From: Patescibacteria group bacterium
Lineage (GTDB): Bacteria > Patescibacteriota > Microgenomatia > Curtissbacterales > GWA2-41-24
DNA length: 64,000 nt
Direction of reading: 5' to 3'
Assembly: GCA_038063735.1 (NCBI GenBank)
Contig: JBBTUN010000002.1
Span: 13,321-77,320, forward strand
Position numbers and translations under genes: made by a program. Shown here piece after piece: positions 1,677 to 62,805 of this stretch (position 1 is its first letter; each line of letters starts with the position of its first letter). The notes under the pieces are model-generated. The model worked only from the letters and a program-made list of their open reading frames with translations. It searched no databases and was not told the origin of the DNA.

Positions 1677-2547
1677 ATTAAAGGTTAAAGTTGGGGGCCC
1701 ATCCTTCGCTTCATCCTACGCTAAGGCTACGGATGACAAGAAAGCTATGGAGGGCAAGGAAATTTTAAAAGGTGTTGACCTGGAGGTTGGTGCCGGTGAA
1801 GTCCATGTGGTGATGGGGCCGAATGGGAGTGGAAAAAGTACGCTGGCGCAGGTGATAGCAGGGAACCCAATGTACAAAGTTCACAGTGGACAGATCACGG
1901 TTGACGGTAAAAACATAATTAAATTAAGTCCGGATAAAAGGGCGAAGCTGGGGATATTTTTGGGTTTCCAGAACCCGATTGAAATTCCGGGCGTTAGTGT
2001 TTTCAACGTAATTAGGAAGGCAAGTCAATCTCAAGTGGGTCCTGCCAGTAGTTTCCCTCCCGTCAGTGCTCAATTGAAAACAAAATCCGTGCGTAATGGT
2101 AAATCGAGTGTCAATCTGCGCGCTGCCGGAAGCCCTTCCACTACTGTCACCCAGTTTCGTCAAGATCTTTTAAAATATGCATCTTCTTTAAAATTATCAT
2201 CCGATCATCTTTCCAGATCTTTTAATGAAGGGTTTTCCGGTGGGGAAAAAAAGAGAAATGAGATTTTGCAGATGCTGGCACTGTCGCCAAAACTTGTAAT
2301 TTTGGATGAGATAGATAGTGGGTTGGATGTGGATGGATTGAAGCTGGTAGCCGGTGCTATCAAGAAATTCTCAATTCTCAATTCTCAATCCTCAATTATC
2401 CTTATTACCCACTATGCCCGCATCCTTAAATACATCAAGGCAGATTTTGTGCATGTGATGACTGATGGGAAAATTGTTAAATCCGGAAAGCAAAAATTGG
2501 CAACGGAAATTGAGGAGAAAGGATACCAGTTCGTTAATAGTTTATAG
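1657..2547 (+). CDS. sufC: Fe-S cluster assembly ATPase SufC, with two in-frame repeat insertions
   Basis: Walker A GPNGSGKST, ABC signature FSGGEKKR, Walker B LVILDEIDSGLD and C-terminal IILITHYARIL...GYQF, typical of SufC. Start chosen at MNLKINKLKV (SufC-like MLxIxNLHV); the ORF-track start at 1588 looks like an upstream extension. Extra segments at about 1692-1739 and 2030-2160 are absent from canonical SufC. Confidence 0.85.
   Translation: MNLKINKLKVKVGGPSFASSYAKATDDKKAMEGKEILKGVDLEVGAGEVHVVMGPNGSGKSTLAQVIAGNPMYKVHSGQITVDGKNIIKLSPDKRAKLGIFLGFQNPIEIPGVSVFNVIRKASQSQVGPASSFPPVSAQLKTKSVRNGKSSVNLRAAGSPSTTVTQFRQDLLKYASSLKLSSDHLSRSFNEGFSGGEKKRNEILQMLALSPKLVILDEIDSGLDVDGLKLVAGAIKKFSILNSQSSIILITHYARILKYIKADFVHVMTDGKIVKSGKQKLATEIEEKGYQFVNSL
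1692..1739 (+). repeat. family-B in-frame element (encodes GGPSFASSYAKATDDKK) in sufC
   Basis: gggggcccatccttcgcttcatcctacgctaaggctacggatgacaag; related to 7667-7702 and 55275-55350. Confidence 0.6.
2113..2155 (+). repeat. family-A in-frame element (encodes NLRAAGSPSTTVTQ) in sufC
   Basis: aatctgcgcgctgccggaagcccttccactactgtcacccag; about 80% identical to 50494-50540. Confidence 0.7.
2375..2400 (+). repeat. CTCAATT/CTCAATC tandem tract in sufC (encodes FSILNSQSSII)
   Basis: ctcaattctcaattctcaatcctcaatt. Confidence 0.6.
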
Positions 2548-2600
2548 TTCATGGTTCATAGTATGCGATTAACGATTAACAATTTACGATTAACGAATAA
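2532..2600. repeat. family-D fragment plus (CGATTAACGA)-like tandem at the sufC 3' end
   Basis: gttaatagtttatagttcatggttcatagtatg is the reverse complement of the tatgaaccatgaac core of 40879-40945; then gcgattaacgattaacaatttacgattaacga. Confidence 0.5.
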
Positions 2601-6614: not shown

Positions 6615-6979
6615 GCGGGAAAGGATATTTTAGATTTGAAAAACTTGATGTTTGGATTGATGCAAGACAGTTTGTATCTTTAATATACAAAGTCACAGAA
6701 GATTTCCCTGCAAAGGAGAGATTCGGATTAATCGATCAGATTAGAAGAGCAGCAGTTTCGATTGCTTTAAACATTGCGGAAGGTTCGACTAAAAATTCTG
6801 ACCCGGATTTTAGAAGGTTCTTGAGAATGTCTCAAGGTTCTGTGAATGAAGTTGTTACAGCACTTTATATTGCTTTGGATCAAAAGTTTATTAAAGAGGG
6901 AAAATTTGATGAACTATATGAATTTACATTAAGGTTAAATGCAAGGCTAAATGCACTAATAAAAAGCATTAGTCATTAG
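6611..6979 (+). CDS. four-helix-bundle protein (23S rRNA intervening-sequence protein family)
   Basis: FEKLDVW..A..F...IYK.T..FP..E.FGL..QIRRAA.SI..NIAEG is the signature of this family. Confidence 0.7.
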   Translation: MSGKGYFRFEKLDVWIDARQFVSLIYKVTEDFPAKERFGLIDQIRRAAVSIALNIAEGSTKNSDPDFRRFLRMSQGSVNEVVTALYIALDQKFIKEGKFDELYEFTLRLNARLNALIKSISH

Positions 6980-7016
6980 TCTTTTGTCTTTAGACATCCG
7001 ACGAAAGGAGGATTAT

Positions 7017-7633: not shown

Positions 7634-8876
7634 GCAAGATTTTCCAATATTGAATCGGAAAATAAATGGTCCCTCCTATGCTAAAGCTTCGGAGGGCAAG
7701 AAACCTTTGGTTTATCTGGACAGTGCGGCGACGTCTCAGAAGCCAAAGCAAGTTCTTAACGCAATTTCCGACTATTACCAAAAACATAACGCCAATGTGC
7801 ATCGGGGAATCCACACTTTATCTGTGGAGGCAACGGAAATGTACGAAGCGGCACGGAAGAAGGTAGCTGATTTTGTTGGTGTAAAAGATCCGGCGGAGAT
7901 TATTTTTGTGAGAAATGCTACCGAGGCGATCAATCTGGTTGCTTATTCTTGGGGTCGGTTCAACATATCAAAAGGTGATGAAATTGTAGTGACTGTCGCA
8001 GAGCACCACAGCAATTTTGTGCCGTGGCAGCAACTGGCAATCCAGAAGCAGGCAAAATTTAAAGTAGTTCCCATCAATAAAGAAACCGGTGAGATTGATC
8101 TTAAGGCGCTTGGTAAATTACTGACAAAGAAAACGAAAATAGTCGCTTTTGCCCATGTTTCTAATGTTTTAGGGACGATTAACGATGTTTTGCATTTGTC
8201 GTTAGTCGTTCGTCGTTTGGCGCCACAAGCAATAGTACTTGTGGATGGTGCCCAAGCTGTTCCGCATATGCCTGTTGATATTTCTGAAATCGGTTGCGAT
8301 TTTTATGTTTTTACCGGACACAAAATGCTGGGGCCAACCGGAATTGGGGTTTTGTGGGGAAGGCGGGAGCTTTTGGAGACGATGACACCATTTTTATTTG
8401 GGGGAGAAATGATTTCCAAAGTTTCTCTAGAAAAATCCACTTGGAACGAATTGCCGTGGAAGTTTGAAGCGGGAACCCCGGATATTGCGGGGGCGATTGG
8501 ATTAGGAGCGGCGGTTGATTATCTTGATAAAATTGGCATGGATAAGGTTCGGGAGCACGATGTAGAACTAACAAAATATGCGATTGAAAAGTTATCAAAA
8601 ATTGATGGTGTGATTATATATGGACCGAAAGATGTCAAAAAGCGCAGCGGAGTGGTTGCATTTAATGTTGGGTCAATACACGCCCATGATGTGGCATCGA
8701 TTTTGGATAGTGAGGGGATTGCTGTCCGGTCCGGTCACCACTGCGCCCAACCACTCATGGATTTTTTGGGAGTTTCGTCTGTTGCGAGAGCCAGTTTTTA
8801 TCTATATAACTCCATTGAAGAAGTGGATAGGTTAGTGGAGGGTGTTTTGAAAGTTAAGGAGGTTTTTAAAATATAA
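7623..8876 (+). CDS. sufS: cysteine desulfurase SufS (class V aminotransferase)
   Basis: Motifs ...VYLDSAATSQKP, the PLP-lysine region FYVFTGHKMLGPTGIGVLWG and the active-site region RSGHHCAQPLM are typical of group II SufS. N-terminal GPSYAKASEGKK is an inserted repeat-encoded segment. Confidence 0.9.
   Translation: MNRRQDFPILNRKINGPSYAKASEGKKPLVYLDSAATSQKPKQVLNAISDYYQKHNANVHRGIHTLSVEATEMYEAARKKVADFVGVKDPAEIIFVRNATEAINLVAYSWGRFNISKGDEIVVTVAEHHSNFVPWQQLAIQKQAKFKVVPINKETGEIDLKALGKLLTKKTKIVAFAHVSNVLGTINDVLHLSLVVRRLAPQAIVLVDGAQAVPHMPVDISEIGCDFYVFTGHKMLGPTGIGVLWGRRELLETMTPFLFGGEMISKVSLEKSTWNELPWKFEAGTPDIAGAIGLGAAVDYLDKIGMDKVREHDVELTKYAIEKLSKIDGVIIYGPKDVKKRSGVVAFNVGSIHAHDVASILDSEGIAVRSGHHCAQPLMDFLGVSSVARASFYLYNSIEEVDRLVEGVLKVKEVFKI
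7667..7702 (+). repeat. family-B in-frame element (encodes GPSYAKASEGKK) in sufS
   Basis: ggtccctcctatgctaaagcttcggagggcaagaaa; CCCTCC...GGAGGG arms. Confidence 0.55.
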
Positions 8877-9638: not shown

Positions 9639-9694
9639 CTCTGCAGATGCAGAGTAATTTCAAATCTCAAATTTCAAATGTCTAATGTTAGAAT

Positions 9695-15989: not shown

Positions 15990-16195
15990 TTGTAACAAGT
16001 CGGTAAAGGGATCGGTGAGTCGGTAGGTCGGTAATGTCTTTAGAGTCGGTGAGTCGGTAGGATGAGGGGGTCATACTGAATTTACTGACAATACTGGTTT
16101 TACTGATTTTACCGACGTTACTGATAATACTGATTTTACTGAAATATACTGATTTTTACCGATTTATCCTGATAGGATTCCTGATATAATTTTTG
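15990..16195. repeat. intergenic imperfect palindrome built from TCGGTA(G) and TACTGA(T)/TACCGA repeat units
   Basis: Left half carries tcggtgagtcggtagg twice plus tcggtaa; right half carries tactgac, tactggtttt, tactgatttt, taccgacg, tactgataa, tactgatttt and taccgattt, which are reverse-complement-like to the left half. Lies between divergent tal and the MIP gene. Confidence 0.6.
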
Positions 16196-20267: not shown

Positions 20268-20303
20268 CAATAATTTACTGGCAAGTATACCAAAATTTAT
20301 ATT

Positions 20304-22212: not shown

Positions 22213-22281
22213 GGTTAATTTCCAATTACAAATTTCCAATTTCCAAATTTTGGAGCTTGGGGTTTTGTCATTTGGAATTGA

Positions 22282-23040: not shown

Positions 23041-25295
<2,255 letters not shown>

Positions 25296-35523: not shown

Positions 35524-36524
35524 AAAAACGTATTTTGACAGGGGATAGGCCGACGGGGAAATTGCATTTGGGCCACTATGTCGGGTCACTTGCAAACAGG
35601 GTAAAGCTGCAACATGAATATGAAACTTTTATTATGGTTGCGGACGTCCAGGCCTTGACGGATAATTTTGAGCATCCGGAAAAACTGGGCGAAAATATTC
35701 GGGAAGTTGTTTTGGACTATCTTTCTGTTGGGATTGATCCTAAGGTTTCGACAATTTTTATTCAGTCCCAAGTTCCTCAAATTGCAGAGCTAACGGTTTT
35801 TTTTATGAATTTAGTGACTTTGGCACGGCTCGAGAGAAACCCGACGGTTAAGGATGAAATGAAACAAAAAGGGTATGGAGCCAATGTTCCTTTGGGGTTT
35901 TTGGCTTATCCGGTTTCTCAGGCTGCCGATATTGCGTTTTTGAAAGCAGATTTGGTGCCGGTTGGGGTTGACCAGGTGCCGATGATTGAGCAGACGCGCG
36001 AAATTGTGCGCAAGTTTAACGAGCTTTATGGAAAAGTCCTGGTGGAGCCGGAGGCGTTAGTTGGAGAGGTAGAAAGATTACCAGGGACTGATGGTAAAGC
36101 GAAGATGAGCAAGAGTTTGGGGAATGTTATTAATTTATCCGATGATCCCCAGACTGTCAGAAAACAGGTAATGGGCATGTATACGGATCCGGCGCGGGTC
36201 CATGGGGACGAACCGGGAGATGTTGAAAACAATCCGGTCTTTATATATCTTGATGCTTTTGCTTCAGAAAGTCACAAGTCACAAGTTATGAGTTATAAAT
36301 CAAAATACAAGGAGGGTAAGGTTAAAGATGTGGAGGTTAAGGAGTTTTTGGTTGGTGTTTTGGAGGAATTCTTGGAACCAATTAGGAAAAGAAGAAAAGA
36401 ATTTGAGAAGCAACCTGGTTTGGTCGATAAAATCTTGAAAGATGGGACAGAAAAAGCGAGAGCGGAGGCAGAAAAAACTTTAAAAGAGGTTAAAGCTGCC
36501 ATGAAAATTAGCTACTTTTCCTAA
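35520..36524 (+). CDS. trpS: tryptophanyl-tRNA synthetase
   Basis: [16 protein letters not shown] (HIGH-like) and KMSKS motifs with class I TrpRS-like architecture. Confidence 0.9.
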
Positions 36525-38588: not shown

Positions 38589-39605
38589 TTGGGCATGAGT
38601 TCTCCAAAAATTCTTCTGTTAATTGATGGGAATAATCTTTTCCATCGTGCGTATCATGCCTTGCCTGCATTAACTGACAAAACGGGTGAGAATGCCAACG
38701 CCGTTTTTGGATTTTCTAATATGCTGATTAGGGCAGTAAAGGAGGTCGAACCTACTTATATCGCCTGTGCATTTGATACCAAGGCGCCAACATTCCGCCA
38801 TGTAGAATTTGAGGCTTATAAAGCGCAAAGAAAAGCCCCGCCGGAGGATTTATATCCACAGCTGCCAAAAGTTAAGGCAGTATTGGATGCTTTTGGTGTT
38901 AAATATTTTGAAAAAGCGGGTTATGAAGCAGACGACATACTCGCGACTGTAGCGTCGCGAGCAGTTAATAGTTCACAGTTAATAGTTCACGGTAAGAAAA
39001 ATGAGAAAACTGTGAACCCCTCTGGAATCGGGGTAAACCGTGAACCGTCTACTGTTGACCAAGTGGTGATTCTTTCCGGCGACCGTGACCTACTTCAACT
39101 CGTTGATGGAAATATCAAGGTTCAGGCGCCCGGGTGGAACCTGAGCTCAACCACATTATATGGTTCAAAAGAGGTGGAAGAAAAGTTTGGAATCACACCC
39201 CTTCAAATGGTCGATTATAAGGCGATGATCGGAGACCCGAGTGATAACATTCCGGGGATTGCCGGCATTGGACCAAAAACGGCCTCGGCATTACTTCAAA
39301 AATACAAAACACTTGAGGGAATTTATGACAATATTGATGAAATTTCGGGAACAACAAAAGATAAGTTGGAAAAGGATAAAGAAATTGCCCTGGCTGCTAA
39401 AAAACTTGTTAAGCTGGATTGTAATGTAGATATTAGCTTTAAGCTGTCAGAGCTTAGATTTAATCCGGATTGGGAAAAAGTAATAAAAGAATTTGAAGGC
39501 TTGGGGTTTAAAAGTATTGTTGCTAAATTGCAAGGTAAAGCAGTGGGCAATGCAAAATCTGTACATGTTGCTGATAATAATAAAGACCAGCTTGAGTTAA
39601 TTTAA
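38589..39605 (+). CDS. 5'-3' exonuclease (DNA polymerase I N-terminal/FEN-like domain) with in-frame repeat insertion
   Basis: ILLLIDGNNLFHRAYHA..., acidic catalytic residues and the H3TH region GIPGIAGIGPKTA; about 30 extra residues encoded by the family-D element at 38962-39056. Confidence 0.8.
   Translation: MGMSSPKILLLIDGNNLFHRAYHALPALTDKTGENANAVFGFSNMLIRAVKEVEPTYIACAFDTKAPTFRHVEFEAYKAQRKAPPEDLYPQLPKVKAVLDAFGVKYFEKAGYEADDILATVASRAVNSSQLIVHGKKNEKTVNPSGIGVNREPSTVDQVVILSGDRDLLQLVDGNIKVQAPGWNLSSTTLYGSKEVEEKFGITPLQMVDYKAMIGDPSDNIPGIAGIGPKTASALLQKYKTLEGIYDNIDEISGTTKDKLEKDKEIALAAKKLVKLDCNVDISFKLSELRFNPDWEKVIKEFEGLGFKSIVAKLQGKAVGNAKSVHVADNNKDQLELI
38962..39056 (+). repeat. family-D nested-hairpin element in-frame in the 5'-3' exonuclease gene
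   Basis: GTTCACAGTTaatagttcacggtaagaaaaatgagaaAACTGTGAACccctctggaatcggggtaaaccgtgaaccgtc: 10-bp and 8-bp inverted repeats. Confidence 0.65.
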
Positions 39606-40286: not shown

Positions 40287-41482
40287 AAGTAGCTCTAGTC
40301 CATGATTATTTAAACGAGTTTGGGGGTGCGGAGAGGGTGCTACTAGCATTGTCGGAGATTTATCCGGACGCGCCGATTTATACGGCTTTTTACCAGGAGG
40401 GATCTTCGGCTTACAAAAGGTTTAAAGGAAAAAAAATAATTACTTCCTGGGCACAGAATGTGCCATTTTTTGCAAGTAAATTACATAGTCCATTACGGTT
40501 TTTGGCCCCGTTTATTTGGAACAGTTTTGTCCACCAGCTGGCGGATTACGATGTGGTGATTGGTTCGAGTAGCTGGTACGTAACGAAGGGGTTCAAACGT
40601 ATCAAAAGTATCAAAGGTAACAAAAGTTTCGTTGAGATTTGTTATTGCCATACTCCGCCAAGGTATTTGTATGGATATCCTACTGCTTCAAATTTACAAA
40701 AGCATTTTTTGGTTAGGGTATATGCACTTTTGGTTAACCATTTTATGCGAGTTTATGATTTTGAGGCGGCGCAACGCGTTGACTGGTTTATTGCCAATTC
40801 CAAAGAGGTTGCAGGTAGGGTTAAGAAGTTTTATCGAAGAGAATCCACGGTGATTTATCCACCGGTGGATGTAAAAAAGTTCACAGTTAATAGTTCACAG
40901 TTAATAGTTAATAAAAATACTATGAACCATGAACCGTCAACTAATTACTTTCTGGTTGTTTCCCGGCTTGTGGCGGCGAAAAATGTAGACATTGCAGTGG
41001 AAGTTTGTACAAATTTGAAATTGCCTTTGAAAATAGTTGGAACGGGTAAGGAGATGCAAGCTCTTAAGGAGCTAGCAAGTTCACAGTCCTCAGTGAACGG
41101 TGAACAGTCAACAATTGAGTTTCTCGGTGATGTTAGTGATAGTGAACTGGTTGAGCTTTATCAAAATTGTCGTTCCTTAATTTTTTCCGGGAGCCAGGAA
41201 GATTTTGGGATTGTGCCGGTTGAGGCAATGGCCGCGGGTAAGCCTGTCATTGCTTTAGCGGAGGGCGGAATCAAGGAGACTGTAATTGATGGTAAAACCG
41301 GGCTTTGGGTAGAGGATTTGGCGCCGGGCGCATTTGTCATTGCCATTAATAAATTTTTGGAAATGGAGAAAAAGGGGCAGTGGGATAGCGAATTTATCCG
41401 CAAACACGCCCAAAAATTCAGCAAGGAACGTTTTAAGCGCGAAATTAAGAAATTTGTGGAAAGTAAGCACAAAAAAGCTTGA
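40283..41482 (+). CDS. glycosyltransferase family 4 (GT-B)
   Basis: C-terminal EDFGIVPVEAMAAGKPVIA (E..7E-like) with preceding Rossmann-like segments; start overlaps the HAD stop. Confidence 0.8.
   Translation: MKVALVHDYLNEFGGAERVLLALSEIYPDAPIYTAFYQEGSSAYKRFKGKKIITSWAQNVPFFASKLHSPLRFLAPFIWNSFVHQLADYDVVIGSSSWYVTKGFKRIKSIKGNKSFVEICYCHTPPRYLYGYPTASNLQKHFLVRVYALLVNHFMRVYDFEAAQRVDWFIANSKEVAGRVKKFYRRESTVIYPPVDVKKFTVNSSQLIVNKNTMNHEPSTNYFLVVSRLVAAKNVDIAVEVCTNLKLPLKIVGTGKEMQALKELASSQSSVNGEQSTIEFLGDVSDSELVELYQNCRSLIFSGSQEDFGIVPVEAMAAGKPVIALAEGGIKETVIDGKTGLWVEDLAPGAFVIAINKFLEMEKKGQWDSEFIRKHAQKFSKERFKREIKKFVESKHKKA
40596..40628 (+). repeat. GTATCAAA tandem units in-frame in the GT4 gene (encodes KRIKSIKGNK)
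   Basis: acgtatcaaaagtatcaaaggtaacaaaag; same unit as 62765-62805. Confidence 0.55.
40879..40945 (+). repeat. family-D element in-frame in the GT4 gene
   Basis: ttcacagttaatagttcacagttaatagttaataaaaatactatgaaccatgaaccgtcaactaat. Confidence 0.65.
41078..41112 (+). repeat. family-D short hairpin in-frame in the GT4 gene
   Basis: aGTTCACagtcctcaGTGAACggtgaacagtcaac. Confidence 0.5.
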
Positions 41483-43038: not shown

Positions 43039-43950
43039 ATGCCTGAATTACCCGAAGTAACGGTTGTAGTTAATAGTTTGAATAATGCAATAAAGGGCTT
43101 AACTTTTGATTCAGTTGAATACGACTGGAAGCCGAAGTTTTATTGGAATGGATTTTCGATAAAAGATTTAAAAGGGGCAAAAGTAAAGGATGTCCGTAGG
43201 TGGGGGAAAGTGATTGTAATTGATCTAGAGACAAGCAAAAAGCAAAAAGCAAAAAGTAGAGGTATGTCGATAGTTATCCACCTTAAATTGACCGGGCAGC
43301 TGGTCTATCAGGACAAAAGGATAAGGGTGGGCGGTGGACATCCTATTCCGCCTCTTAATAAACCTGTTCCAAATGGTACTACCCGGGCTACTTTTGCTTT
43401 TACAAATGGAGGACATTTGTATTTTAACGACATGCGTAAGTTTGGATGGGTAAAGATAGTTGCAAGCGATGAGCGATCTATAAAGGACGCTATCGGAAAG
43501 ATTGAGCTGGGGCCAGACCCAATGACGATGAAATTTGAAGAATTTCGCCAAAGGCTAAAGGCCAAAGGCCAAAGGCGGATAAAACAATTATTAATGGATC
43601 AGGCTTTTGTTGCCGGAGTTGGCAATATTTACAGTGATGAAGCTTTGTGGCGTGCTAAGGTGCACCCAAAAAGGTCTGTTGTGAGTTTAACTGATGCTGA
43701 AATAAAGGCAATATTTAAAGGTTTGATTGACAGTTTTAATTTGGCTATAGAAAAAGGCGGATCTAGCGCTAATTCTTTTGTAGATGGTCGAGGCGAAAAA
43801 GGACTCTATCTTAGTTTTGCAAATGCTTATCATATGACCGGTACGCCATGTAAGCGCTGCAAAACACCAATTGTGCGCGAAAAAATGGATGGCAGGAGTG
43901 CACACTACTGTCCAAATTGTCAAAAGTTGCAACAGCAACTGTTGGTATAG
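43039..43950 (+). CDS. fpg: formamidopyrimidine-DNA glycosylase (Fpg/Nei family)
   Basis: N-terminal MPELPEV catalytic Pro2/Glu3, H2TH region, and C-terminal zinc finger C.RC......GRS...CP.CQ. Confidence 0.8.
   Translation: MPELPEVTVVVNSLNNAIKGLTFDSVEYDWKPKFYWNGFSIKDLKGAKVKDVRRWGKVIVIDLETSKKQKAKSRGMSIVIHLKLTGQLVYQDKRIRVGGGHPIPPLNKPVPNGTTRATFAFTNGGHLYFNDMRKFGWVKIVASDERSIKDAIGKIELGPDPMTMKFEEFRQRLKAKGQRRIKQLLMDQAFVAGVGNIYSDEALWRAKVHPKRSVVSLTDAEIKAIFKGLIDSFNLAIEKGGSSANSFVDGRGEKGLYLSFANAYHMTGTPCKRCKTPIVREKMDGRSAHYCPNCQKLQQQLLV
43231..43258 (+). repeat. AAGCAAAA tandem units in-frame in fpg (encodes KKQKAKS)
   Basis: aaagcaaaaagcaaaaagcaaaaagtag; compare 49921-49944. Confidence 0.55.
43555..43575 (+). 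repeat. AAGGCC tandem in fpg
   Basis: aaggccaaaggccaaaggcgg. Confidence 0.45.
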
Positions 43951-44007: not shown

Positions 44008-45240
44008 ATGCCGTTTTTGCCAAAAACCTACTTAGCACTTTTTAAAAATCGTGATTTTTTTATTCTGTCAGCAATAATTTTTTTTGGTCAAGCAGCGTCT
44101 GCTTTTTTAGTGCTGACGCTTATTATTTCTGTATTTTTAAAAACCGGTAGCAATATCGGAGTATCCGGAGTAGTTCTTTCCTTTACAATCCCTTCATTTT
44201 TTTTGATGGCATTTTCTGGGCTGCTTGCCGATATTTTTGATCGCAGAAAAACGATAATTTTTGCCAATGTGTTTATTACACTGGTTGTTCTTATGATTAT
44301 TTACACTCAAAAGGCTGTTTATGCTTCTATCCCCTTGTCCTTTTTATATTTTGCAGGGAACTCTTTTTTTATACCGGCGTCCAGTGCTGCGACTGCACAA
44401 CTTGTCAAAAAGAATGAGTTACTGGTTGCCAATTCTATTTTTATATTTAATTTGGCTGGGGGTGTTCTTTTGGGTCTTTTTGCGGCGGCTGTCGTTTATT
44501 TTTTCTTTGGGGCATATGTGACACTTGTGATTTGTGAAGTGTTTTTGCTGGTCGCGGCAGTACTTTCATTCTTTTTACCAAAACTTGTACCTCTTGAAAA
44601 AAGTGAAGATTCTTTTCGAAAGCGCGTTAGTAATATTTGGGACGGTTTTGTCTATATGTTTAAATCCCGAACAGTCTGGTTCTTTTTTGTAGCTTTTGCG
44701 GCAATACAGGGTGTAATTGTTTTTGGAATAACCTTGGCGCCTGGCTTTTTTACAGAAATAGTCGGAATTTCTATTGAAAAAGCTTTAGTTTTCGTTTTCC
44801 CGCTTATCACCGTGGGGGTCCTGTTTGGCATTGGGGTTATTAATAAACCTAAAATTAACGAACTGTCCCTCTTGTCGCTTGGAAATTTGGTGATGGGTGC
44901 AAGCCTCTTTTTTTATGGTATTTCTTTAAAAATTCAACTGTTTTCCAGATTGGCACTGGCTTTTTTGGCTGTGCCATTTTTAATTGGTTTAGGGTTTGGG
45001 ACTATCCTTATTATGATTGCCTCCCGGACTGTTCTTCAAAAAAAAATACCGCACACTCACCAGGGGACAGTTTTTGGGGCAAATATAATACTGGCATCGC
45101 TATTCGCCGCATTTGCATCTCCACTTGCAGTAATGTTTGAGGTTATTTTTGGCTATTTGGGCACTTTGGTGTTGGGGGGAACTGCTTTAGGGTTTTCTGG
45201 AGCGCTTTTTATTTATTTGGGTAAAAAGTGGAAATATTAA
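44008..45240 (+). CDS. MFS transporter
   Basis: 410 aa, about 12 hydrophobic segments; GLLADIFDRRK after TM2 resembles the MFS signature. Confidence 0.6.
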   Translation: MPFLPKTYLALFKNRDFFILSAIIFFGQAASAFLVLTLIISVFLKTGSNIGVSGVVLSFTIPSFFLMAFSGLLADIFDRRKTIIFANVFITLVVLMIIYTQKAVYASIPLSFLYFAGNSFFIPASSAATAQLVKKNELLVANSIFIFNLAGGVLLGLFAAAVVYFFFGAYVTLVICEVFLLVAAVLSFFLPKLVPLEKSEDSFRKRVSNIWDGFVYMFKSRTVWFFFVAFAAIQGVIVFGITLAPGFFTEIVGISIEKALVFVFPLITVGVLFGIGVINKPKINELSLLSLGNLVMGASLFFYGISLKIQLFSRLALAFLAVPFLIGLGFGTILIMIASRTVLQKKIPHTHQGTVFGANIILASLFAAFASPLAVMFEVIFGYLGTLVLGGTALGFSGALFIYLGKKWKY

Positions 45241-45304: not shown

Positions 45305-46468
45305 ATGCGCATAGATTCTCTTAAGCTTACGAACTACCGGAATTTTACTGCTCAGAAGATATCGTTTGACGGAAAACTCACAGCGATTGTGGGTAAAAAC
45401 GGTGCCGGTAAAAGCAATATTTTAGAGGCTGTCGCTATGCTATCCGGAATTAGGCCGATAAGGGTAGAAACGGATTTGGATTTAGTCCGTTTTGGGGCAG
45501 AAAGTGCCAAAGTTGAAGGGGAAATTTCTTCTGAGGGTGACACCAAAAGTTTAATAGTTAACCTACAAGTTATAGATAGGCGAGTTGGTAAGTCTTTTTA
45601 TATAGGTGCATTTAAAAAGAGGCTCGTGGATTTTGTGGAAGTTTTTTCTATAGTTGTTTTCGAGCCAAGTGATTTAGATTTGGTTTCCGGTTCTCCGTCT
45701 TTGCGTCGTCGTCACCTGGACAGGTTTTTATCATCCATTGACGGTAAATACTGGAGAAGTGTCAGCGCTTATGGAAAGATTGTGACGAGAAGAAATAAGA
45801 TTTTGGGAAGAATTGGAGAAGGCAGGGCGAAACCTTTGGAGCTTGGTTTTTGGGACTCACGCCTCTTGGAGCACGGAAAGTATGTTTCGAAAGTGCGTGA
45901 GGAGTTTTTTGAGTTTTTGAATTTTGTCGAAGCGGTTAATGACTCGGGTCCTGTCAGTTCTTTCCTTCCCACTCCTTCGATCGTCTCAGGACAAGCAGTG
46001 CAGCGCGTTTATCCTGAGCGAAGTCGAAGGGCTGTCGGGAACCCTTCTAGAACTGCCACCCGCGAAAATATTAGCGGATTTTTCTGGAACTTAAAGCAGA
46101 GTGTTTTAACTGAGGAGAAGCTCAAGAATAATAGAGAGCGCGATATTGCAGCAGGCATTACGCTTTCTGGCCCGCATCGCGATGATTTCAGATTTGTTCA
46201 CAAAAAACGCGATTTGGAGTTTTTCGGTTCTCGCGGGCAGCAGCGTATGGCAGTTTTGGCACTAAAGCTTGCAGAGCTTGAGTACCACCGTGTCAAGCGC
46301 GGGCAACGGCCGGTACTAGCGCTGGATGATATTTTTTCGGAATTGGATTGGGAGCACAGGAATACTGTTTTGTCGGTAATATCAAATCAACAAACAATTA
46401 TTACGGCAGCGGAAAAAGAATCCATCCCGAGGGAAATTTTCAAAAAGGCAAAGATTGTGGAACTGTAA
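45305..46468 (+). CDS. recF: DNA replication/repair protein RecF, with in-frame repeat insertion
   Basis: MRIDSLKLTNYRNF......F.....AIVGKNGAGKSNILEA and C-terminal ...LDDIFSELD; about 40 extra residues at 45960-46080 encoded by the family-A element. Confidence 0.75.
   Translation: MRIDSLKLTNYRNFTAQKISFDGKLTAIVGKNGAGKSNILEAVAMLSGIRPIRVETDLDLVRFGAESAKVEGEISSEGDTKSLIVNLQVIDRRVGKSFYIGAFKKRLVDFVEVFSIVVFEPSDLDLVSGSPSLRRRHLDRFLSSIDGKYWRSVSAYGKIVTRRNKILGRIGEGRAKPLELGFWDSRLLEHGKYVSKVREEFFEFLNFVEAVNDSGPVSSFLPTPSIVSGQAVQRVYPERSRRAVGNPSRTATRENISGFFWNLKQSVLTEEKLKNNRERDIAAGITLSGPHRDDFRFVHKKRDLEFFGSRGQQRMAVLALKLAELEYHRVKRGQRPVLALDDIFSELDWEHRNTVLSVISNQQTIITAAEKESIPREIFKKAKIVEL
46029..46068 (+). repeat. family-A in-frame element (encodes RRAVGNPSRTATRE) in recF
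   Basis: gggctgtcgggaacccttctagaactgccacccgcgaaaa. Confidence 0.65.
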
Positions 46469-48111: not shown

Positions 48112-49179
48112 ATGTACTCCCCGAAATATCGAGTTTCAAATTTAATTTTAAAATATATCGGTAAGATAGAAGCCTCAAAGGAAGTTATCGAAAACGCACC
48201 ACTAGTGCCTGCGTACGAAGCTAAATTTCGACAGGAAGCGATAATCAGGACTGTCCATCACGGAACACATATAGAAGGCAATCCATTGGATAGCGGTGAG
48301 GTGGCTGCAGTACTCGAGGGTGGTAATGTTCCGGCTCGTGATCGTGATGTCCAGGAAATTTTAAATTATCGGGAAGTACTAAAGTACATTGATAAAACTC
48401 AAAACTCGAAACTCAAAATTCCAAATTTTAGCGAGAAAGATATTCTTACAATTCACAAATTAACGGTCGATAAAGTTTTGTCTGCTGCGACCGCAGGTAC
48501 ATATCGTCTAAATCAGGTTGTTGTTAAAAATTCTAAAACTGGAGAGATTAGTTTTAAACCTCCCGAGGCGAACAAAGTTAAAAAACTGGTAGGGGATTTT
48601 TTGGATTGGTTAAACGGAAAAGAAGCCAGCGATGTGCATCCGGTTCTAAAGGCAGGAATTACCCATTATGTTTTGGCTTTTATACATCCGTTTGTGGACG
48701 GAAACGGAAGGGCGTCACGTGCTTTTGCGACTTTGGTTTTGTTTCGTGGGGGTTATGATATTAAAAAGTTCTTTTCGATAGAAGAATATTTTGATAGGGA
48801 CTCTAAAAGATATTACGAAACTTTGCAGAGTGTTTCAAACCAAAAGGTGAATAGTCTATCTGAGCGGGATTTAACAGGTTGGCTTGAATATTTTTGTGAG
48901 GGAGTGGCGGAAGAGCTGGAGAGAGTCAAACAAAGAGTGCAAAAATTGTCACTGGATACAAAATTGAAAGGGAGAACGGGGCAGATAGTGCTTAACGAGA
49001 GGCAGGTAAAGCTTGTTGAGTATATCGAGGCTAATGGGTCTATTAATAATAAACAGTGGAGGGTTATTTTGCGTGATTTTTCCGATGACACAATTTTGCG
49101 GGATTTGAAGGATTTGCAGAAGAAAAAACTGGTAAAAAAGAAGGGGTCTACAAAGGGGGCCGTTTACGTACTGAGATGA
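48112..49179 (+). CDS. Fic-family protein (AMPylation fold) with C-terminal winged-helix domain
   Basis: Fic motif HPFVDGNGRASR (HPF.[DE]GNGR) and a C-terminal basic wHTH-like tail. Confidence 0.75.
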   Translation: MYSPKYRVSNLILKYIGKIEASKEVIENAPLVPAYEAKFRQEAIIRTVHHGTHIEGNPLDSGEVAAVLEGGNVPARDRDVQEILNYREVLKYIDKTQNSKLKIPNFSEKDILTIHKLTVDKVLSAATAGTYRLNQVVVKNSKTGEISFKPPEANKVKKLVGDFLDWLNGKEASDVHPVLKAGITHYVLAFIHPFVDGNGRASRAFATLVLFRGGYDIKKFFSIEEYFDRDSKRYYETLQSVSNQKVNSLSERDLTGWLEYFCEGVAEELERVKQRVQKLSLDTKLKGRTGQIVLNERQVKLVEYIEANGSINNKQWRVILRDFSDDTILRDLKDLQKKKLVKKKGSTKGAVYVLR

Positions 49180-49580
49180 AGAGTGATAGTGAGAGAGAGT
49201 TAGAGAGTAAAAGTGTCAGAACTAAGGGTTATCATAAGTTGATTTTGTGGCAGAAGGCAAGGGAATTTTTAAAGTTGGTGTACAAGCATTCAGAAAAGTT
49301 TCCTAAAAGTGAAGAATATGGTCTAAAGAGTCAGCTAAGGAGAGCGACAGTTTCAGTACTTTTAAACATAGTAGAGGGATATCGGAGAAATTCTACAAAA
49401 GAATTTATCAGGTTTTTGAATATTTCTGGTGCCTCTTTAAGCGAGGTAGAAGCTTGTATTGAGATAGCCATCGACCTTGGGTATTTTACTCAAACGGAAT
49501 ATAAAATTCTTGAAGAAAGGAGAGTGGAAATAGAAGTTATTTTATTCTCTTTTGAGAAATCTCTAAGAAAAAAACTATAA
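49176..49580 (+). CDS. four-helix-bundle protein (23S rRNA intervening-sequence protein family)
   Basis: ...GYHKLILWQKAREF...YKHSEKFPKSEEYGLKSQLRRATVSVLLNIVEGY, same family as 6611-6979. Confidence 0.7.
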   Translation: MKSDSERELESKSVRTKGYHKLILWQKAREFLKLVYKHSEKFPKSEEYGLKSQLRRATVSVLLNIVEGYRRNSTKEFIRFLNISGASLSEVEACIEIAIDLGYFTQTEYKILEERRVEIEVILFSFEKSLRKKL

Positions 49581-49593
49581 CTCTATTACTCTT

Positions 49594-51507
49594 ATGCTCT
49601 TTGCAACTTTATCGAAATATTACGAAAAGTTGGAGTCAACGAGTAAACGTTTGGAGCTTGTTGATATTTTATCCAAACTTTTTGGAGAATCGGACAGTGC
49701 GGAAATTGGCAAGATTTGTTATTTGTTGCAGGGAAGAGTTGCGCCGTTTTATATGCCTGTTGAAATGGGAATGGCCGAATCTATGGTCGCGCAGGCAATT
49801 GCCAAGGCGTATGGCCCCACTTCGCCAAGGCTTCGAGGGGTAAACATTACAAAAGATGAAGTTATTAAGCTTTATCGTAAGTTGGGGAATATGGGGCTAG
49901 CGGCACAAGAGTTAAGCAATAAGCAAAAAGCAAAAAGTAATAAGTTGTCAGTAAGCGATGTATTTGAGGAGCTTTTAAAGATTGCAAATACTGGAGGAGA
50001 AGGGTCGGTAGAGCAAAAGATAACAACCCTGGCAAACATTTTGAAAGATTTGGATTCTGTTTCCGTTAAACATGTGGTAAATATTCCGTTGGGAACGTTG
50101 AGGTTGGGAATTGGTGACCCGACGGTTATGGACGCACTTTCCATTGCCAAAACGGGAGACAAAAAACTGCGGCCGGTAATCGAAGATGCTTATAACAAAA
50201 CCAGCGATCTTGGATACGTTGCCGAAGAATTTTTTAAGTATGGAGAAAAGGGTTTGGCGACTATTAAATTAATCGTTGGAAAACCGGTTAGGCCGGCTTT
50301 GGCCGAGCGGATGCCAAATGCAGACGAAGTTGTTAAGCGAATGGGCGACAAATTTGCGGCAGAACCCAAGTTTGACGGATTTAGGGTGCAAATTCATTTG
50401 GACCGGCGCGGTATTGCGGGTCCTGTCACGATTTTCCCTCCCGCCAGTGCTCGATCAGGAAAGAAAACAGATCGTGATCAGTCGGAAAATGTTGATCTGC
50501 GCGCTGTCGGTAGCCCTTCCAATCGTGCCACCCGCGAAGTCGAGATTTTTTCCCGAAACCTGGAAGATATGACACATTCTTTTCCGGATTTAGCGCAAGG
50601 GGTTTTAAAAGAAGTCAAGGCAAAATCTGTGATTATGGAGGGGGAGGCAATTGCTTATAACCCGCAGACGGAGGAATTTTTACCGTTTCAGGAAACAACA
50701 AAGAGAAGGCGCAAATATAAGATCGAAGAAACTGCAAAAGCACTGCCACTTGTCTGTTTTGCCTTTGATATTTTGTATTTGGACGGGCAGGATATAACGG
50801 GAAAGCCGGAGGTTGAGCGCAGAAAACTGTTGGAAAAAATTGTTTCGAAAGACCTGCCTGCCGGCAGGCAGGGTAACCAAACGATTAGAATTGCCGAACA
50901 AAGGGTAATTTCTACTGCCAAAGAAATCCAGGAATTTTTTAATGAGGCAATTTCGGATGGGCTCGAAGGTTTGATGATTAAAAAACTGGATGCGCCATAT
51001 AAAGCAGGCGGGCGGGGTTTCCATTGGATTAAGTTTAAGCGGGCTTCCAGCGGAGATTTGGCAGATACGGTGGATTGTGTTTTGTTGGGGATTTATAGTG
51101 GCAAAGGCAAAAGGACGGAATTTGGGGATGGTGGGCTTTTGGTTGGGATTTATAACGATAAAGATGATGTTTTTGAGACGATTTCGCGGGTTGGGACGGG
51201 TTTGACGGATGAAGAGTTTAGAAAAGTCCATGAAATTGGCAAAAAGTTAAGGCTTGGTCATAAACCGGCAAGAGTAAGGTCTAAAATTGAACCGAGTTAT
51301 TGGGTAGAGCCGAAAGAAGTTTTGGAAATTTACGCCGACGAAATTACCAAATCTCCGATTCATACGGCTGGAGAAGAAGATGGAATTGGGTATGCGTTAA
51401 GATTTCCGAGATTAGTTAAATTTAGAGAGGCAGACAAAAGGGCTGAAGATGCAACTACGGTTGAGGAGATTAAAAAATTGTATAAAAATCAGTATGGCAA
51501 GAAGTAG
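49594..51507 (+). CDS. ATP-dependent DNA ligase, with in-frame repeat insertion
   Basis: Adenylation motif I AEPKFDGFRVQIH (K.DG.R), ...EGLMIKK.... and ...GIY..KG; about 40 extra residues at 50440-50560 encoded by the family-A element. Confidence 0.8.
   Translation: MLFATLSKYYEKLESTSKRLELVDILSKLFGESDSAEIGKICYLLQGRVAPFYMPVEMGMAESMVAQAIAKAYGPTSPRLRGVNITKDEVIKLYRKLGNMGLAAQELSNKQKAKSNKLSVSDVFEELLKIANTGGEGSVEQKITTLANILKDLDSVSVKHVVNIPLGTLRLGIGDPTVMDALSIAKTGDKKLRPVIEDAYNKTSDLGYVAEEFFKYGEKGLATIKLIVGKPVRPALAERMPNADEVVKRMGDKFAAEPKFDGFRVQIHLDRRGIAGPVTIFPPASARSGKKTDRDQSENVDLRAVGSPSNRATREVEIFSRNLEDMTHSFPDLAQGVLKEVKAKSVIMEGEAIAYNPQTEEFLPFQETTKRRRKYKIEETAKALPLVCFAFDILYLDGQDITGKPEVERRKLLEKIVSKDLPAGRQGNQTIRIAEQRVISTAKEIQEFFNEAISDGLEGLMIKKLDAPYKAGGRGFHWIKFKRASSGDLADTVDCVLLGIYSGKGKRTEFGDGGLLVGIYNDKDDVFETISRVGTGLTDEEFRKVHEIGKKLRLGHKPARVRSKIEPSYWVEPKEVLEIYADEITKSPIHTAGEEDGIGYALRFPRLVKFREADKRAEDATTVEEIKKLYKNQYGKK
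49921..49944 (+). repeat. AAGCAAAA tandem units in-frame in the ligase gene (encodes NKQKAKSNK)
   Basis: aagcaaaaagcaaaaagtaataag. Confidence 0.5.
50494..50540 (+). repeat. family-A in-frame element (encodes DLRAVGSPSNRATRE) in the ligase gene
   Basis: gatctgcgcgctgtcggtagcccttccaatcgtgccacccgcgaagt. Confidence 0.7.
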
Positions 51508-51867: not shown

Positions 51868-52034
51868 GTGCAGATTATATTCTTGGCTATAGTATTTTTC
51901 AATTTAGCCCCTCGATGCTTCGGGCAACAGGAAACCTTAAACTAGAAACTTCACTGCGTTTTAACTAAACTATAATTGTCATGCTGAACTTGTTTCAGCA
52001 TCTATAAACTTCCGAGGGATAAGAGCCCTCGGTA

Positions 52035-62756: not shown

Positions 62757-62764
62757 GTAGAAGT

Positions 62765-62805
62765 ATCAGAAGTTACAAAGGTATCAAGGGTATCAAATGT
62801 CGAAA
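62765..62805 (+). repeat. GTATCA(A/G) tandem units, intergenic upstream of the SIS isomerase gene
   Basis: aagtatcagaagttacaaaggtatcaagggtatcaaatg. Confidence 0.5.

What the first reader, a model, noticed from the sequence alone, without database searches (positions are those of the whole stretch)
40596..40628. Microsatellite-like units shared between coding and intergenic DNA (GTATCAAA, AAGCAAAA, AAGGCC, CTCAATT, AAACTCAAA, TTGATGG)
Short tandem units occur in frame inside conserved genes. Examples: GT4 40596-40628 (acgtatcaaaagtatcaaaggtaacaaaag, KRIKSIKGNK); fpg 43231-43258 and ligase 49921-49944 (aagcaaaaagcaaaaag, KQKAKS in both); fpg 43555-43575; sufC 2375-2400; Fic 48399-48421 (aaaactcaaaactcgaaactcaaaa); atpG 24700-24745. 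The same GTATCAA unit is found intergenically at 62765-62805, so coding and non-coding copies share an origin. Units whose length is not a multiple of three (8-nt GTATCAAA and AAGCAAAA) sitting in essential genes could cause slipped-strand frameshifts, a possible contingency or phase-variation mechanism. Alternatively they are another facet of the same invasive-repeat biology as families A-D.
Basis: partly seen in the sequence, partly recalled or inferred. Interest (0 to 1): 0.55.

Follow-up and report, generated by a model that had tools for sequence, protein, structure and literature searches.

The report
Seven-base repeat tracts inside essential genes
The short repeats are real and far commoner than chance, but they are fixed tracts of mostly 7-base units sitting in tolerant protein loops and spacers of an uncultured groundwater bacterium, not on/off switches.

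Summary
The tracts exist at the stated places and lie in frame in GT4, Fpg, ligase, SufC, Fic and AtpG. The unit lengths were misread. AAGCAAA, AAAGGCC, AAAACTC, AATTCTC and TGGTTGA are 7-mers, and the headline GT4 tract is a 9-mer array, so there are no 8-mers.

Period 7 is about 200-fold enriched: 14 arrays against 0.07 in shuffles. It is also enriched in Curtissbacteria relatives, absent from an E. coli control, and patchy in other lineages.

Phase variation is not supported:
- The arrays are short (2.6-5 units) and often imperfect, and sit mid-gene in housekeeping genes.
- 21 alternative contigs of the same population (9 sample or assembly accessions) show no indel in any array.
- The headline tract is base-for-base identical in a relative whose GT4 gene is only 79% identical.

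Unit families recur at unrelated coding and intergenic sites more than chance allows. The arrays occupy hypervariable, low-confidence loops that hold different repeat families in sister lineages. A subclass forms array, A-rich loop, inverted array hairpins.

Best reading: a lineage-specific population of heptanucleotide-phased repeats, made uniform and copied at the DNA level, and kept only where they are tolerated. It is a new variant of known heptamer repeats and in-frame palindromic elements.

The parts
40593..40627 (+). Headline tract: 9-nt unit (TCAAAAGTA / GTATCAAAR) x3.9, in frame in the GT4 glycosyltransferase (aa 104-115, KRIKSIKGNKS). It fills hypervariable loop 'hotspot 2'.
   Evidence: The loop is 5-38 aa long in 64 homologues. 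The tract lies in a coil stretch (DSSP residues 97-116) where pLDDT dips below 50 at residues 99-101 and 109-112. It is conserved in P0012, P0013 and P0020 and is identical in DNA in L113.
62763..62797 (+). Intergenic copy of the same 9-mer family (GTATCAGAA GTTACAAAG GTATCAAGG GTATCAAA), in the spacer between uppS (ends 62756) and pgi (starts 62823).
   Evidence: It matches 40593-40627 at 25 of 32 bases, and 0 of 3000 random 35-mers reach that score.
43233..43256 (+). (AAGCAAA)x3.4, perfect, in Fpg loop 'hotspot 1'. The loop insert is about 9 aa longer than in orthologues that lack it.
49913..49945 (+). (TAAGCAA/AAGCAAA)x4.6 in the N-terminal domain loop of the ATP-dependent DNA ligase. It shares a 19-nt exact string with the Fpg tract. 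The sister lineage L113 has an (AACGACN) array at the same site with the same length.
   Evidence: (D9).
43547..43576 (+). (GCCAAAG)x4.3 in Fpg, lying over a conserved-length segment (RLKAKGQRR) and not an insertion. Three window-specific substitutions each convert a unit to GCCAAAG.
48394..48427 (+). (AAAACTC)x3.6 in a Fic loop. It is a +15 nt insert relative to L113, which carries the same family, (AAACTCG)x4, in GT4 hotspot 3 instead.
24695..24730 (-). (TGGTTGA)x5.1 on the + strand, which is ATCAACC on the coding strand, in AtpG ([13 protein letters not shown]). The loop is about 5 aa longer than in the solved gamma subunit shown in the alignment.
   Evidence: No variation in 6 alternative contigs.
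2366..2397 (+). (AATTCTC)x4.6 in the SufC-like ABC ATPase (KFSILNSQSSI).
   Evidence: No variation in L116.
2530..2600 (+). Hairpin made of two heptamer arrays, (GTTCATA)x4.3 and (CGATTAA)x5. It spans the SufC stop codon.
   Evidence: I1: 30-nt arms, 77% complementary, 8-nt loop.
38962..39058 (+). In-frame hairpin cassette in the 5'-3' exonuclease: (CAGTTAA/TAGTTCA) array, an A-rich loop, then a GTGAACC-type inverted array (AVNSSQLIVH...VNREPSTV).
   Evidence: (I10).
40878..40945 (+). In-frame hairpin cassette in GT4 hotspot 3: (AGTTCAC/AGTTAAT)x5, loop AAAAATACT, then (ATGAACC...) (FTVNSSQLIVNKNTMNHEPSTN).
   Evidence: pLDDT is below 50 at residues 205-219. Sister lineages hold other families here.
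41078..41115 (+). Small AGTTCAC / GTGAAC inverted cassette in GT4 hotspot 4 (SSQSSVNGEQST).
   Evidence: (D1).
36269..36296 (+). (AAGTCAC/AAGTTAT) array in a variable TrpRS loop of constant length.
8173..8217 (+). ACGATTAACGATG paired with (GTCGTTA)x2.9, forming a hairpin inside the cysteine desulfurase gene.
   Evidence: (z -3.6).
6967..6997 (+). (CATTAGT)x4.4 across the stop codon of a 23S_rRNA_IVP-family gene.
9656..9688 (+). (AATTTCA)x4.7, intergenic, upstream of the VIT-family gene.
   Evidence: The same unit occurs in the L007 exonuclease hotspot.
22217..22250 (+). (AATTTCC)x4.3 forming a hairpin with the adjacent TTTGGAGCTTGGGG, downstream of atpC. The same unit occurs as (AATTTCC)x5.7 inside fpg of L004.
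   Evidence: (z -3.2).
16019..16173 (+). 155-nt intergenic imperfect palindrome built from (GTCGGTRR)n and (TACYGAYNN)n arrays of period 8-9.
   Evidence: z -7.2. The related unit CCGACCTAC occurs in the L003 fpg insert.

Best explanation
The window comes from a Curtissbacteria-type CPR (Patescibacteria) genome. Like its relatives, it carries a dense population of short-period DNA repeats, about 200 per Mb. Heptanucleotide units dominate, with rarer 8- and 9-nt units such as the headline GTATCAAAR tract.

The periodicity is a property of the DNA, not of the protein. An array of 24-36 nt holds fewer than two 7-residue peptide periods, and identical units also occur in spacers.

The proposed mechanism has three steps.
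1. Misalignment in 7-nt register (slipped-strand pairing or short-patch conversion) creates neighbouring units and makes them uniform.
2. The same unit families are copied to unrelated sites. A subclass appears as array, A-rich loop, inverted array hairpins.
3. Selection acts as a filter. In a genome that is 88% coding, copies survive only in spacers, at gene ends, or in frame and stop-free in surface loops that tolerate extra low-complexity residues.

Once fixed, the short imperfect arrays are stable. They behave as tolerated or selfish insertions that remodel protein loops over evolutionary time, not as switches.

Shown here: the enrichment, the period, the spread across the clade, the location in loops, the stability in the population and between species, the sharing of units, the hairpin subclass and the homogenising substitutions. 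Inferred: the molecular mechanism of homogenisation and copying, and the neutrality of the tracts.
For: Period-7 excess:
- 14 arrays against 0.07 expected in the window.
- 43 arrays in 265 kb of 18 related loci, against 0-4 for periods 4-6.
- 0 arrays in 50 kb of E. coli.
- 30 arrays in 0.89 Mb of diverse AtpD-linked loci, 28 of them in 6 loci.

Organism.

Loop location: alignments of GT4, Fpg, Fic, the exonuclease, the ligase and TrpRS. The GT4 loop lengths range over 5-38, 11-54 and 14-58 aa in 64 homologues. pLDDT is low at residues 109-112 and 205-219. AtpG has a small loop insertion.

Stability: no array indels in 21 alternative contigs. The headline tract is conserved in relatives.

Shared repertoire: 19 identical-unit pairs against 2-3 expected, and 116 pairs within one mismatch against 40-51 expected. 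Within-genome sharing exceeds between-genome sharing (10% against 5.9%, p = 0.018). Exact copies of 19 nt (fpg and ligase) and 18 nt (two sites in L113 fpg) link separate sites.

Homogenisation in place: three derived substitutions in fpg array 2 all move units toward GCCAAAG.

Hairpin subclass: 7 of 56 arrays have a reverse-complement partner at >=12 of 14 bases, against 2.3% in controls.

Literature: heptanucleotides are the most abundant long simple repeats in most of the prokaryote genomes surveyed, and polymerase slippage has been proposed as the cause (PMC4679880 and PMC4692102).
Against: - No mechanism was observed directly.
- Sharing of units could be inflated by constraints my null models ignore: arrays in genes must be stop-free in all three frames and encode hydrophilic peptides. 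Some orthologous sites are also counted as pairs.
- The repeated occupation of one loop by different families in sister lineages fits true mobile elements as well as it fits conversion.
- The headline tract lies in the longest identical run (62 nt) of a gene that is only 79% identical to L113. That hints at constraint or recent exchange rather than neutrality.
- The population evidence comes from consensus assemblies, not reads. Some contigs may derive from the same reads.
Confidence: 0.6

Rival explanations
1. Contingency loci: unit gain or loss in the non-3n tracts switches the genes on and off by frameshift (phase variation).
For: Heptamer units are not multiples of three, so a change of one unit would shift the frame. 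Heptanucleotide phase variation is known elsewhere, for example in Haemophilus (PMC2651432 and PMC8262952).
Against: - The tracts have 2.6-5.1 units and are often imperfect.
- They lie mid-gene in AtpG, Fpg, the ligase, SufC and TrpRS. A frameshift there would destroy the protein.
- No array indels occur in 21 alternative contigs that do differ by substitutions.
- The headline tract has 9-nt units and the same number of units in species whose GT4 genes are 79% identical at the DNA level.
Confidence: 0.03
2. The arrays are arms or fragments of true miniature mobile elements (MITE-, REP- or RPE-like hairpins). A trans-acting enzyme moves them, and they insert repeatedly into the same permissive or targeted sites.
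For: - The architecture of array, A-rich loop, inverted array recurs in genes and spacers.
- In four lineages whose GT4 proteins are 75-85% identical to the window's, GT4 hotspot 3 holds three different families. The exonuclease hotspot holds three different hairpins and one empty site.
- The same families appear at other loci in sister genomes.
- In-frame palindromic elements are a precedent in Rickettsia (PMC10969869).
Against: - No conserved element ends, terminal inverted repeats or target-site duplications appear in the flank alignments.
- No transposase is encoded in the window.
- Some arrays overlie segments of conserved length with no insertion.
Confidence: 0.22
3. The tracts are functional cis elements: heptamer- or nonamer-spaced protein-binding sites or RNA hairpins. 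Their sequence is under direct selection.
For: - A 62-nt run including the headline tract is identical to L113 in a gene that is 79% identical overall. The core GTATCAAAAGTATCAAAG is the same in three of the four compared lineages (window, L113, L115) and differs by one base in L114.
- Several hairpins fold better than shuffles, with z scores from -3 to -7.
- The arms stay complementary while the units differ between lineages.
- A regulatory role has been proposed for TAACTGA heptamer repeats.
Against: - Unit sequences are very diverse.
- There are no Rfam matches, and no terminator- or promoter-like sites coincide with the arrays.
- The tracts are absent from many orthologues.
- The antisense strand folds better than the mRNA strand. 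Mutations that weaken mRNA hairpins in coding copies explain this simply.
Confidence: 0.1
4. Selection at the protein level for lysine-, serine- and glutamine-rich flexible linkers produced the repeats.
For: The encoded peptides are hydrophilic and of low complexity, and lie in low-confidence loops. Borg tandem repeats are reported to create disordered regions (PMC9879509).
Against: - The period is 7 nt, so the peptide does not repeat within an array.
- The same units occur in spacers.
- The enrichment is specific to period 7, not to periods 3, 6 or 9.
Confidence: 0.04

Closest known systems
Over-represented heptanucleotide long simple sequence repeats of prokaryotes (Mrazek, Guo & Shah 2007, as summarised in PMC4679880 and PMC4692102), including the cyanobacterial tandem heptamers of Calothrix and Nostoc
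   Same: Tandem 7-nt units are strongly over-represented in some lineages and absent in most. The units are diverse within a genome, the function is unknown, and polymerase slippage has been proposed (here).
   Different: The lineage here is CPR, and my literature searches found no report for it. Most arrays here are inside genes, in frame and in essential proteins. The cited work, by contrast, found that units whose length is a multiple of three are the ones favoured in coding DNA, and reported an intergenic excess in Xanthomonas and Nostoc. A subclass here forms paired inverted arrays.
Rickettsia palindromic elements (Ogata et al. 2000, 2002, via PMC10969869)
   Same: Repeated palindromic DNA is inserted in frame into unrelated housekeeping genes, at positions compatible with the protein fold (here).
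   Different: Rickettsia elements are about 150 bp, belong to ten families and encode a conserved peptide. Here the cassettes are 25-100 nt with no conserved consensus beyond the 7-nt unit and an A-rich loop, and most arrays are not palindromic.
TAACTGA heptamer direct repeats of marine Beggiatoaceae and some cyanobacteria (PMC4679880)
   Same: Short sets of 2-6 heptamer copies. That paper also notes that stop codons limit which orientation can enter genes.
   Different: There, one dominant heptamer lies mostly just upstream of start codons. Here there are dozens of unit families, mostly inside genes.
Phase-variable simple-repeat contingency loci (for example Haemophilus influenzae, PMC2651432)
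   Same: Tandem units that are not multiples of three lie inside reading frames.
   Different: The tracts here are short and imperfect, in housekeeping genes, and show no copy-number polymorphism.
Tandem repeats of Borg elements that create disordered protein regions (PMC9879509)
   Same: Nucleotide-level repeats add low-complexity, probably disordered segments to proteins (abstract; here).
   Different: The abstract describes Borg repeats as recently formed and rapidly evolving. Here the arrays are often imperfect, are built on a 7-nt unit, and are stable within the population and, for the headline tract, between species.

Membership tests
Phase-variable contingency locus | Long, perfect tract of short units | tested here: not met
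   The tracts have 2.6-5.1 units at 73-100% match.
Phase-variable contingency locus | Tract lies in the promoter or 5' part of a dispensable surface, restriction or virulence gene | tested here: not met
   The tracts lie mid-gene in AtpG, Fpg, the DNA ligase, SufC, TrpRS, Fic and GT4.
Phase-variable contingency locus | Unit number varies between cells or strains | tested here: not met
   No array indels in 21 alternative contigs covering the whole window. The headline tract has the same unit number in four lineages. These are consensus sequences only; read-level data were not available.
Heptanucleotide long simple sequence repeats | Tandem head-to-tail copies of a 7-nt unit | tested here: met
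   TRF and offset self-comparison. The headline tract itself has a 9-nt unit built on the GTATCAA core, which occurs as a 7-mer array in L008.
Heptanucleotide long simple sequence repeats | Over-representation against a composition-matched expectation, specific to that period | tested here: met
   14 arrays against 0.07 expected, with other periods near zero. Relatives have 43 arrays against 0-4 for periods 4-6. The E. coli control has none.
Heptanucleotide long simple sequence repeats | Lineage-specific, phylogenetically patchy occurrence | tested here: met
   28 of 30 arrays fall in 6 of 80 diverse loci.
Rickettsia-palindromic-element-like in-frame selfish DNA | Inserted in frame in unrelated conserved genes at structurally permissive positions | tested here: met
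   Alignments and the structure model.
Rickettsia-palindromic-element-like in-frame selfish DNA | Palindromic (hairpin-forming) sequence | tested here: inconclusive
True for a subclass. 7 of 56 arrays have a strong inverted partner, against 2.3% in controls.
Rickettsia-palindromic-element-like in-frame selfish DNA | Copies share a conserved full-length consensus that defines families | tested here: not met
   Similarity is limited to the 7-nt unit and an A-rich loop, with no conserved ends.
MITE / REP element | Terminal inverted repeats, target-site duplication, and a cognate transposase in the genome | tested here: inconclusive
   None is visible in the flanks, and no transposase lies in the 64-kb window. 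The rest of the genome was not examined.

The most novel reading that the evidence does not exclude
Heptamer-phased cassettes, often hairpins with an A-rich loop, may be a new class of miniature intragenic element in CPR bacteria. On this reading they have no terminal repeats, target duplications or transposase. A copy or conversion process working in 7-nt register spreads them and keeps them uniform. It continually rewrites the surface loops of essential proteins, and it may be the same process behind the unexplained heptamer repeats of cyanobacteria. The nucleotide-level conservation of the headline tract might additionally reflect a cis-acting role.
Probability: 0.2. Interest if true: 0.7.

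Novelty: new variant of a known kind. Interest (0 to 1): 0.45.

Why it matters
Heptanucleotide repeats have long been known to be over-represented in scattered bacterial lineages (literature of 2007-2015), and no mechanism has been established. Here the same signal appears at high density in a tiny, streamlined, 88%-coding CPR genome, inside essential genes. The same loops carry different repeat families in sister lineages, while each tract is fixed within a population. That gives a compact comparative system for three questions: how such repeats arise, how they spread, and how they add disordered loops to conserved proteins. It also warns annotators that insertions in CPR proteins can be repeat-derived. 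For the specific claim of phase variation, the result is negative.

Tried and rejected
- Palindromic units. I tested whether units are '6-bp palindrome plus one base'. Unit self-complementarity is not enriched: 7 of 56 against 9% in the null.
- D1 repeat at 1876-1911. It looked like a fourth AGTTCAC copy, but it is the conserved SufC motif YKVHSGQITVDG.
- 5' flank similarity between the fpg and ligase AAGCAAA tracts (D9). In fpg this flank encodes a segment (RRxGK...IDL) that is conserved across orthologues, so I did not count it as part of a shared element.
- Canonical signals. No Rfam family other than tRNAs matches. No terminator-like site and no excess of promoter-like sites coincides with the arrays.
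- Recent gain and loss between close species. The closest locus pair among the genome-collection relatives is only 75.6% identical in DNA. The protein search found nothing between 85% and 99% identity. L113-L115 were the best available relatives.
- Exact look-ups of SufC, the exonuclease and SufB failed because of start-codon or sequence differences. SufS and IspG were used instead.
- The Mrazek 2007 paper is not held. Its content is cited second-hand.
- The TIGR-Tas array idea raised by a literature hit was not pursued. The 16-kb palindrome has no adjacent candidate effector gene.
Full report
**Observation**

TRF reports arrays at 40593-40627 (period 9, 3.9 copies), 43233-43256 (AAGCAAA, 3.4 perfect copies) and 43547-43576 (GCCAAAG, 4.3). 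It also reports 48394-48418 (AAAACTC, 3.6), 49913-49944 (TAAGCAA, 4.6), 2366-2397 (AATTCTC, 4.6), 24695-24730 (TGGTTGA, 5.1) and 62763-62797 (period 9, 3.9).

Pfam confirms the host genes: a GT4 glycosyltransferase, Fpg, a Fic protein, an ATP-dependent DNA ligase, the ATP synthase gamma subunit and a SufC-like ABC ATPase.

The unit lengths are wrong. There are no 8-mers. The common unit is 7 nt, and the headline tract and its intergenic twin have 9-nt units.

**Is it more than chance?**

I compared the window with itself at each offset. Period 7 gives 14 arrays (score >=11), against 0.07 in dinucleotide-preserving shuffles. Periods 4, 5, 8 and 10 give none, period 9 gives two, and period 14 only echoes period 7. 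With exact matching, period 7 gives 7 arrays against 0.08. The same scan finds no period-7 array in 50 kb of E. coli K-12.

**Organism and spread**

RecF relatives place the window among Candidatus Curtissbacteria (CPR/Patescibacteria). The proteins are on record as a 'Patescibacteria group bacterium' MAG from Hainich groundwater.

In 265 kb from 18 related MAG loci, period 7 again dominates: 43 arrays, against 0-4 for periods 4-6 and 12 and 10 for periods 8 and 9.

In 0.89 Mb around AtpD genes from 80 diverse metagenomic contigs there are 30 period-7 arrays. Of these, 28 sit in six loci, including the closest relative, and 72 of the 80 loci have none.

The trait is therefore specific to certain lineages and patchy. 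That matches what the literature says of heptanucleotide long simple repeats: they are the most abundant class in most of the genomes surveyed, and repeat-rich genomes are scattered phylogenetically. Polymerase slippage has been proposed as the cause (PMC4679880 and PMC4692102). My searches found no report for CPR bacteria.

**Where the tracts sit in proteins**

I aligned the window's genes with syntenic orthologues. The arrays fall in loops of variable length between conserved blocks in GT4, in Fpg and Fic, in the 5'-3' exonuclease, and in the ligase and TrpRS. AtpG has a loop about 5 residues longer than in the solved gamma subunit shown in the alignment.

In 64 GT4 homologues, the loop holding the headline tract ranges from 5 to 38 residues. 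The next two hotspots range from 11 to 54 and from 14 to 58 residues.

An AlphaFold model (pTM 0.84) places residues 97-116 in a coil. pLDDT falls below 50 at residues 109-112 and again at 205-219, which is the second array.

Not every array is an insertion. The second Fpg tract, the ligase tract and the TrpRS tract overlie segments of the same length as in orthologues.

The window is 88% coding. Of 16 heptamer arrays, ten are fully inside genes, three straddle gene ends and three are intergenic.

**Test of phase variation**

Exact-protein look-ups retrieved 21 alternative contigs of the same population under nine sample or assembly accessions. Together they cover the whole window at 99.9-100% identity. 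They differ by up to eight substitutions each, but no array carries an indel. The single indel is one base in an A9 run at 45042.

The nearest GT4 homologues are 75-85% identical in protein. P0012 carries KRIKSIKGNKS unchanged, and P0013 and P0020 carry it with one to three substitutions. Others lack nine residues, which equals three 9-nt units.

At the DNA level the tract in L113 is identical base for base. The unit number is the same in all four lineages compared.

The tracts are short and often imperfect, sit in housekeeping genes, are fixed in the population, and are stable between species in the headline case. The contingency-locus reading fails on every feature I could test. The remaining caveat is that only consensus assemblies were compared, not reads.

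**Shared origin of coding and non-coding copies**

The headline tract and the intergenic tract at 62763 match at 25 of 32 positions. None of 3000 random 35-mers from the window does as well. The same 9-mer family occurs in L014, and its GTATCAA core forms a 7-mer array in L008.

Among 56 heptamer arrays from the window and its relatives, 19 pairs have identical units allowing rotation and strand, against 2-3 expected and a maximum of 9. A further count gives 116 pairs within one mismatch, against 40-51 expected.

Many of these pairs lie at unrelated loci:
- AATTTCC occurs downstream of atpC in the window, inside fpg of L004, and in L016.
- CGATTTA occurs after sufC in the window, in the exonuclease of three relatives, and next to fic in L013.
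- AGTTCAC occurs in the exonuclease and in two GT4 loops of the window.

Sharing is somewhat higher within genomes than between them, 10% against 5.9%, p = 0.018.

Two exact copies link separate sites. The Fpg and ligase tracts share a 19-nt string that includes the non-periodic end. In L113, the Fpg loop insert contains an 18-nt exact copy of the array 315 nt downstream in the same gene.

**Turnover at hotspots**

In four lineages whose GT4 proteins are 75-85% identical to the window's, GT4 hotspot 3 holds three different families. The window has an AGTTCAC hairpin. L113 and L115 have (AAACTCG)x4, the family found in the window's Fic gene. L114 has a CCAGAGA hairpin.

The exonuclease hotspot holds three different hairpins and one empty site. 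The ligase loop holds AAGCAAA in the window and AACGACN in L113, at the same length.

Fpg hotspot 1 is filled differently in almost every relative. Examples are (AATTTCC)x5.7 in L004 and a CTAAACG/CGTTAGT hairpin in L007. L005 carries a GC-rich element that also occurs in the SufC, RecF and ligase genes of the window.

**Homogenisation in place**

In the second Fpg tract, the window differs from L113 at three positions inside the array. L007 agrees with L113 at these positions. Each change turns a unit into GCCAAAG, and two of the three alter the amino acid. Units are therefore made alike in 7-nt register without any change of length.

**Hairpin subclass**

Some arrays are paired with an inverted array across an A-rich loop: 2530-2600, 38962-39058, 40878-40945, 41078-41115 and 8173-8217. 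The large 16019-16173 palindrome belongs with them.

Across the set, 7 of 56 arrays have a reverse-complement partner at >=12 of 14 bases within 90 nt, against 2.3% for shuffled units.

At GT4 hotspot 3, most of the relatives with a long insert here carry such a hairpin with lineage-specific units, and it is clearest in the window, L002, L004, L006, L007 and L013. The antisense strand usually folds better than the mRNA strand, for example -25.9 against -14.5 and -32.5 against -16.9 kcal/mol. An intergenic copy in L004 keeps perfect complementarity. I read this as decay of the coding copies by changes that weaken mRNA structure. That reading is an inference.

None shows a strongly significant fold, with z scores from -1.7 to +0.4.

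**Interpretation**

The best-supported account is a lineage-specific population of short-period repeats, mostly heptanucleotide, governed at the DNA level. The repeats are created and made uniform by misalignment in 7-nt register, copied among sites, and kept only where the genome tolerates them. In a genome this compact, that means spacers, gene ends and permissive protein loops.

Whether the copying is true transposition of miniature hairpin elements or conversion-like templated repair cannot be decided here. I found no element ends, target duplications or transposase, but I examined only 64 kb.

A direct function is not excluded. The headline tract lies in the longest identical run (62 nt) of a gene that is 79% identical between the window and L113. 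I cannot explain that.

**Comparison with known systems**

The finding belongs with the over-represented heptanucleotide repeats known from cyanobacteria, Xanthomonas and others, and it meets their defining features. It resembles Rickettsia palindromic elements in being in frame in housekeeping genes. It lacks their conserved 150-bp consensus. It is not a contingency locus.

The new elements are the CPR host, the predominance of non-3n arrays inside essential genes, the heptamer-built hairpins, and the rapid exchange of families at fixed hotspots.

Noticed in passing
window 40592-40653 and L113 (GCA_000404925.1, ASNZ01000012.1): The longest identical run between the window's GT4 gene and its L113 orthologue is 62 nt. 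It contains the headline tract, yet the genes are only 79% identical overall. The second longest run (39 nt, 41107-41145) abuts hotspot 4. This could mean constraint at the nucleotide level or recent exchange.
   Followed up: partly
window 2033-2152, 45945-46061, 50414-50533; fragments at 25306-25330 and 44548-44573: A GC-rich in-frame element of about 120 nt encodes 'GPxxxFPPxSA...LRAxGSPS'. It sits inside the SufC, RecF and ligase genes. The same family fills Fpg hotspot 1 in L005, the ligase of L007 and GT4 hotspot 3 of P0016. It is a separate family of invasive intragenic repeats.
   Followed up: partly
window 6064-6090, 9019-9045, 25119-25145, 51978-52004: A dispersed 27-nt hairpin repeat, GTCATCCTGAACTTGGTTCAGAATCTA, resembling a REP element (D4).
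   Followed up: no
window 16019-16173: A 155-nt intergenic imperfect palindrome of period-8 and period-9 arrays (GTCGGTRR / TACYGAYNN) lies between divergent genes. Its fold z score is -7.2, and it is invariant in the alternative contig L020.
   Followed up: partly
window 4488-6614: Three small ORFs without Pfam matches (4488-4907, 4944-5363, 5430-5990) lie between SufB and a truncated SufBD-core ORF (5994-6614). A 48-nt direct repeat occurs at 4901, 5357 and 5991 (D2, 54). This could be an insertion or duplication in sufD.
   Followed up: no
window 20195-20268 (-): A tRNA-Ile with anticodon UAU. From my own background knowledge, this is an unusual way for a bacterium to read AUA.
   Followed up: no
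window 6611-6979 and 49176-49580: Two genes of the 23S_rRNA_IVP family. The second also has a weak hit to bAvd, the accessory protein of diversity-generating retroelements, and lies between fic and the ligase. No reverse transcriptase was seen in the window.
   Followed up: no
window 1-64000: GC skew is strongly positive throughout (+0.16 to +0.29). It falls to +0.02 to +0.12 only where genes are on the minus strand. On the coding strand the repeat units tend to have C equal to or above G, against this skew. I judged this by eye from the unit list and did not count it.
   Followed up: no
window 45042: One alternative contig (SRR32696710) has a one-base deletion in an A9 run, which shortens the MFS gene to 359 aa. 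It is either an assembly error or a real homopolymer variant. It is the only indel seen in the population.
   Followed up: partly
L081, L091, L039 (metagenome contigs found through AtpD): Other unidentified lineages are also rich in heptamer arrays. L081 has 10 arrays in 21 kb, including an AAATTCC/TTTGGAA inverted pair. L091 (63% GC) has six AGGAGCC/GCTCCTN arrays in 4.3 kb.
   Followed up: no
L001 3193-3220, L004 3736-3757, L005 2942-2971: In three relatives, a conserved exonuclease segment (RFTIxDLRF) is encoded by a (CGATTTA)n heptamer array. The homologous window segment is SFKLSELRF. It suggests that an old array can become part of a conserved protein segment.
   Followed up: partly
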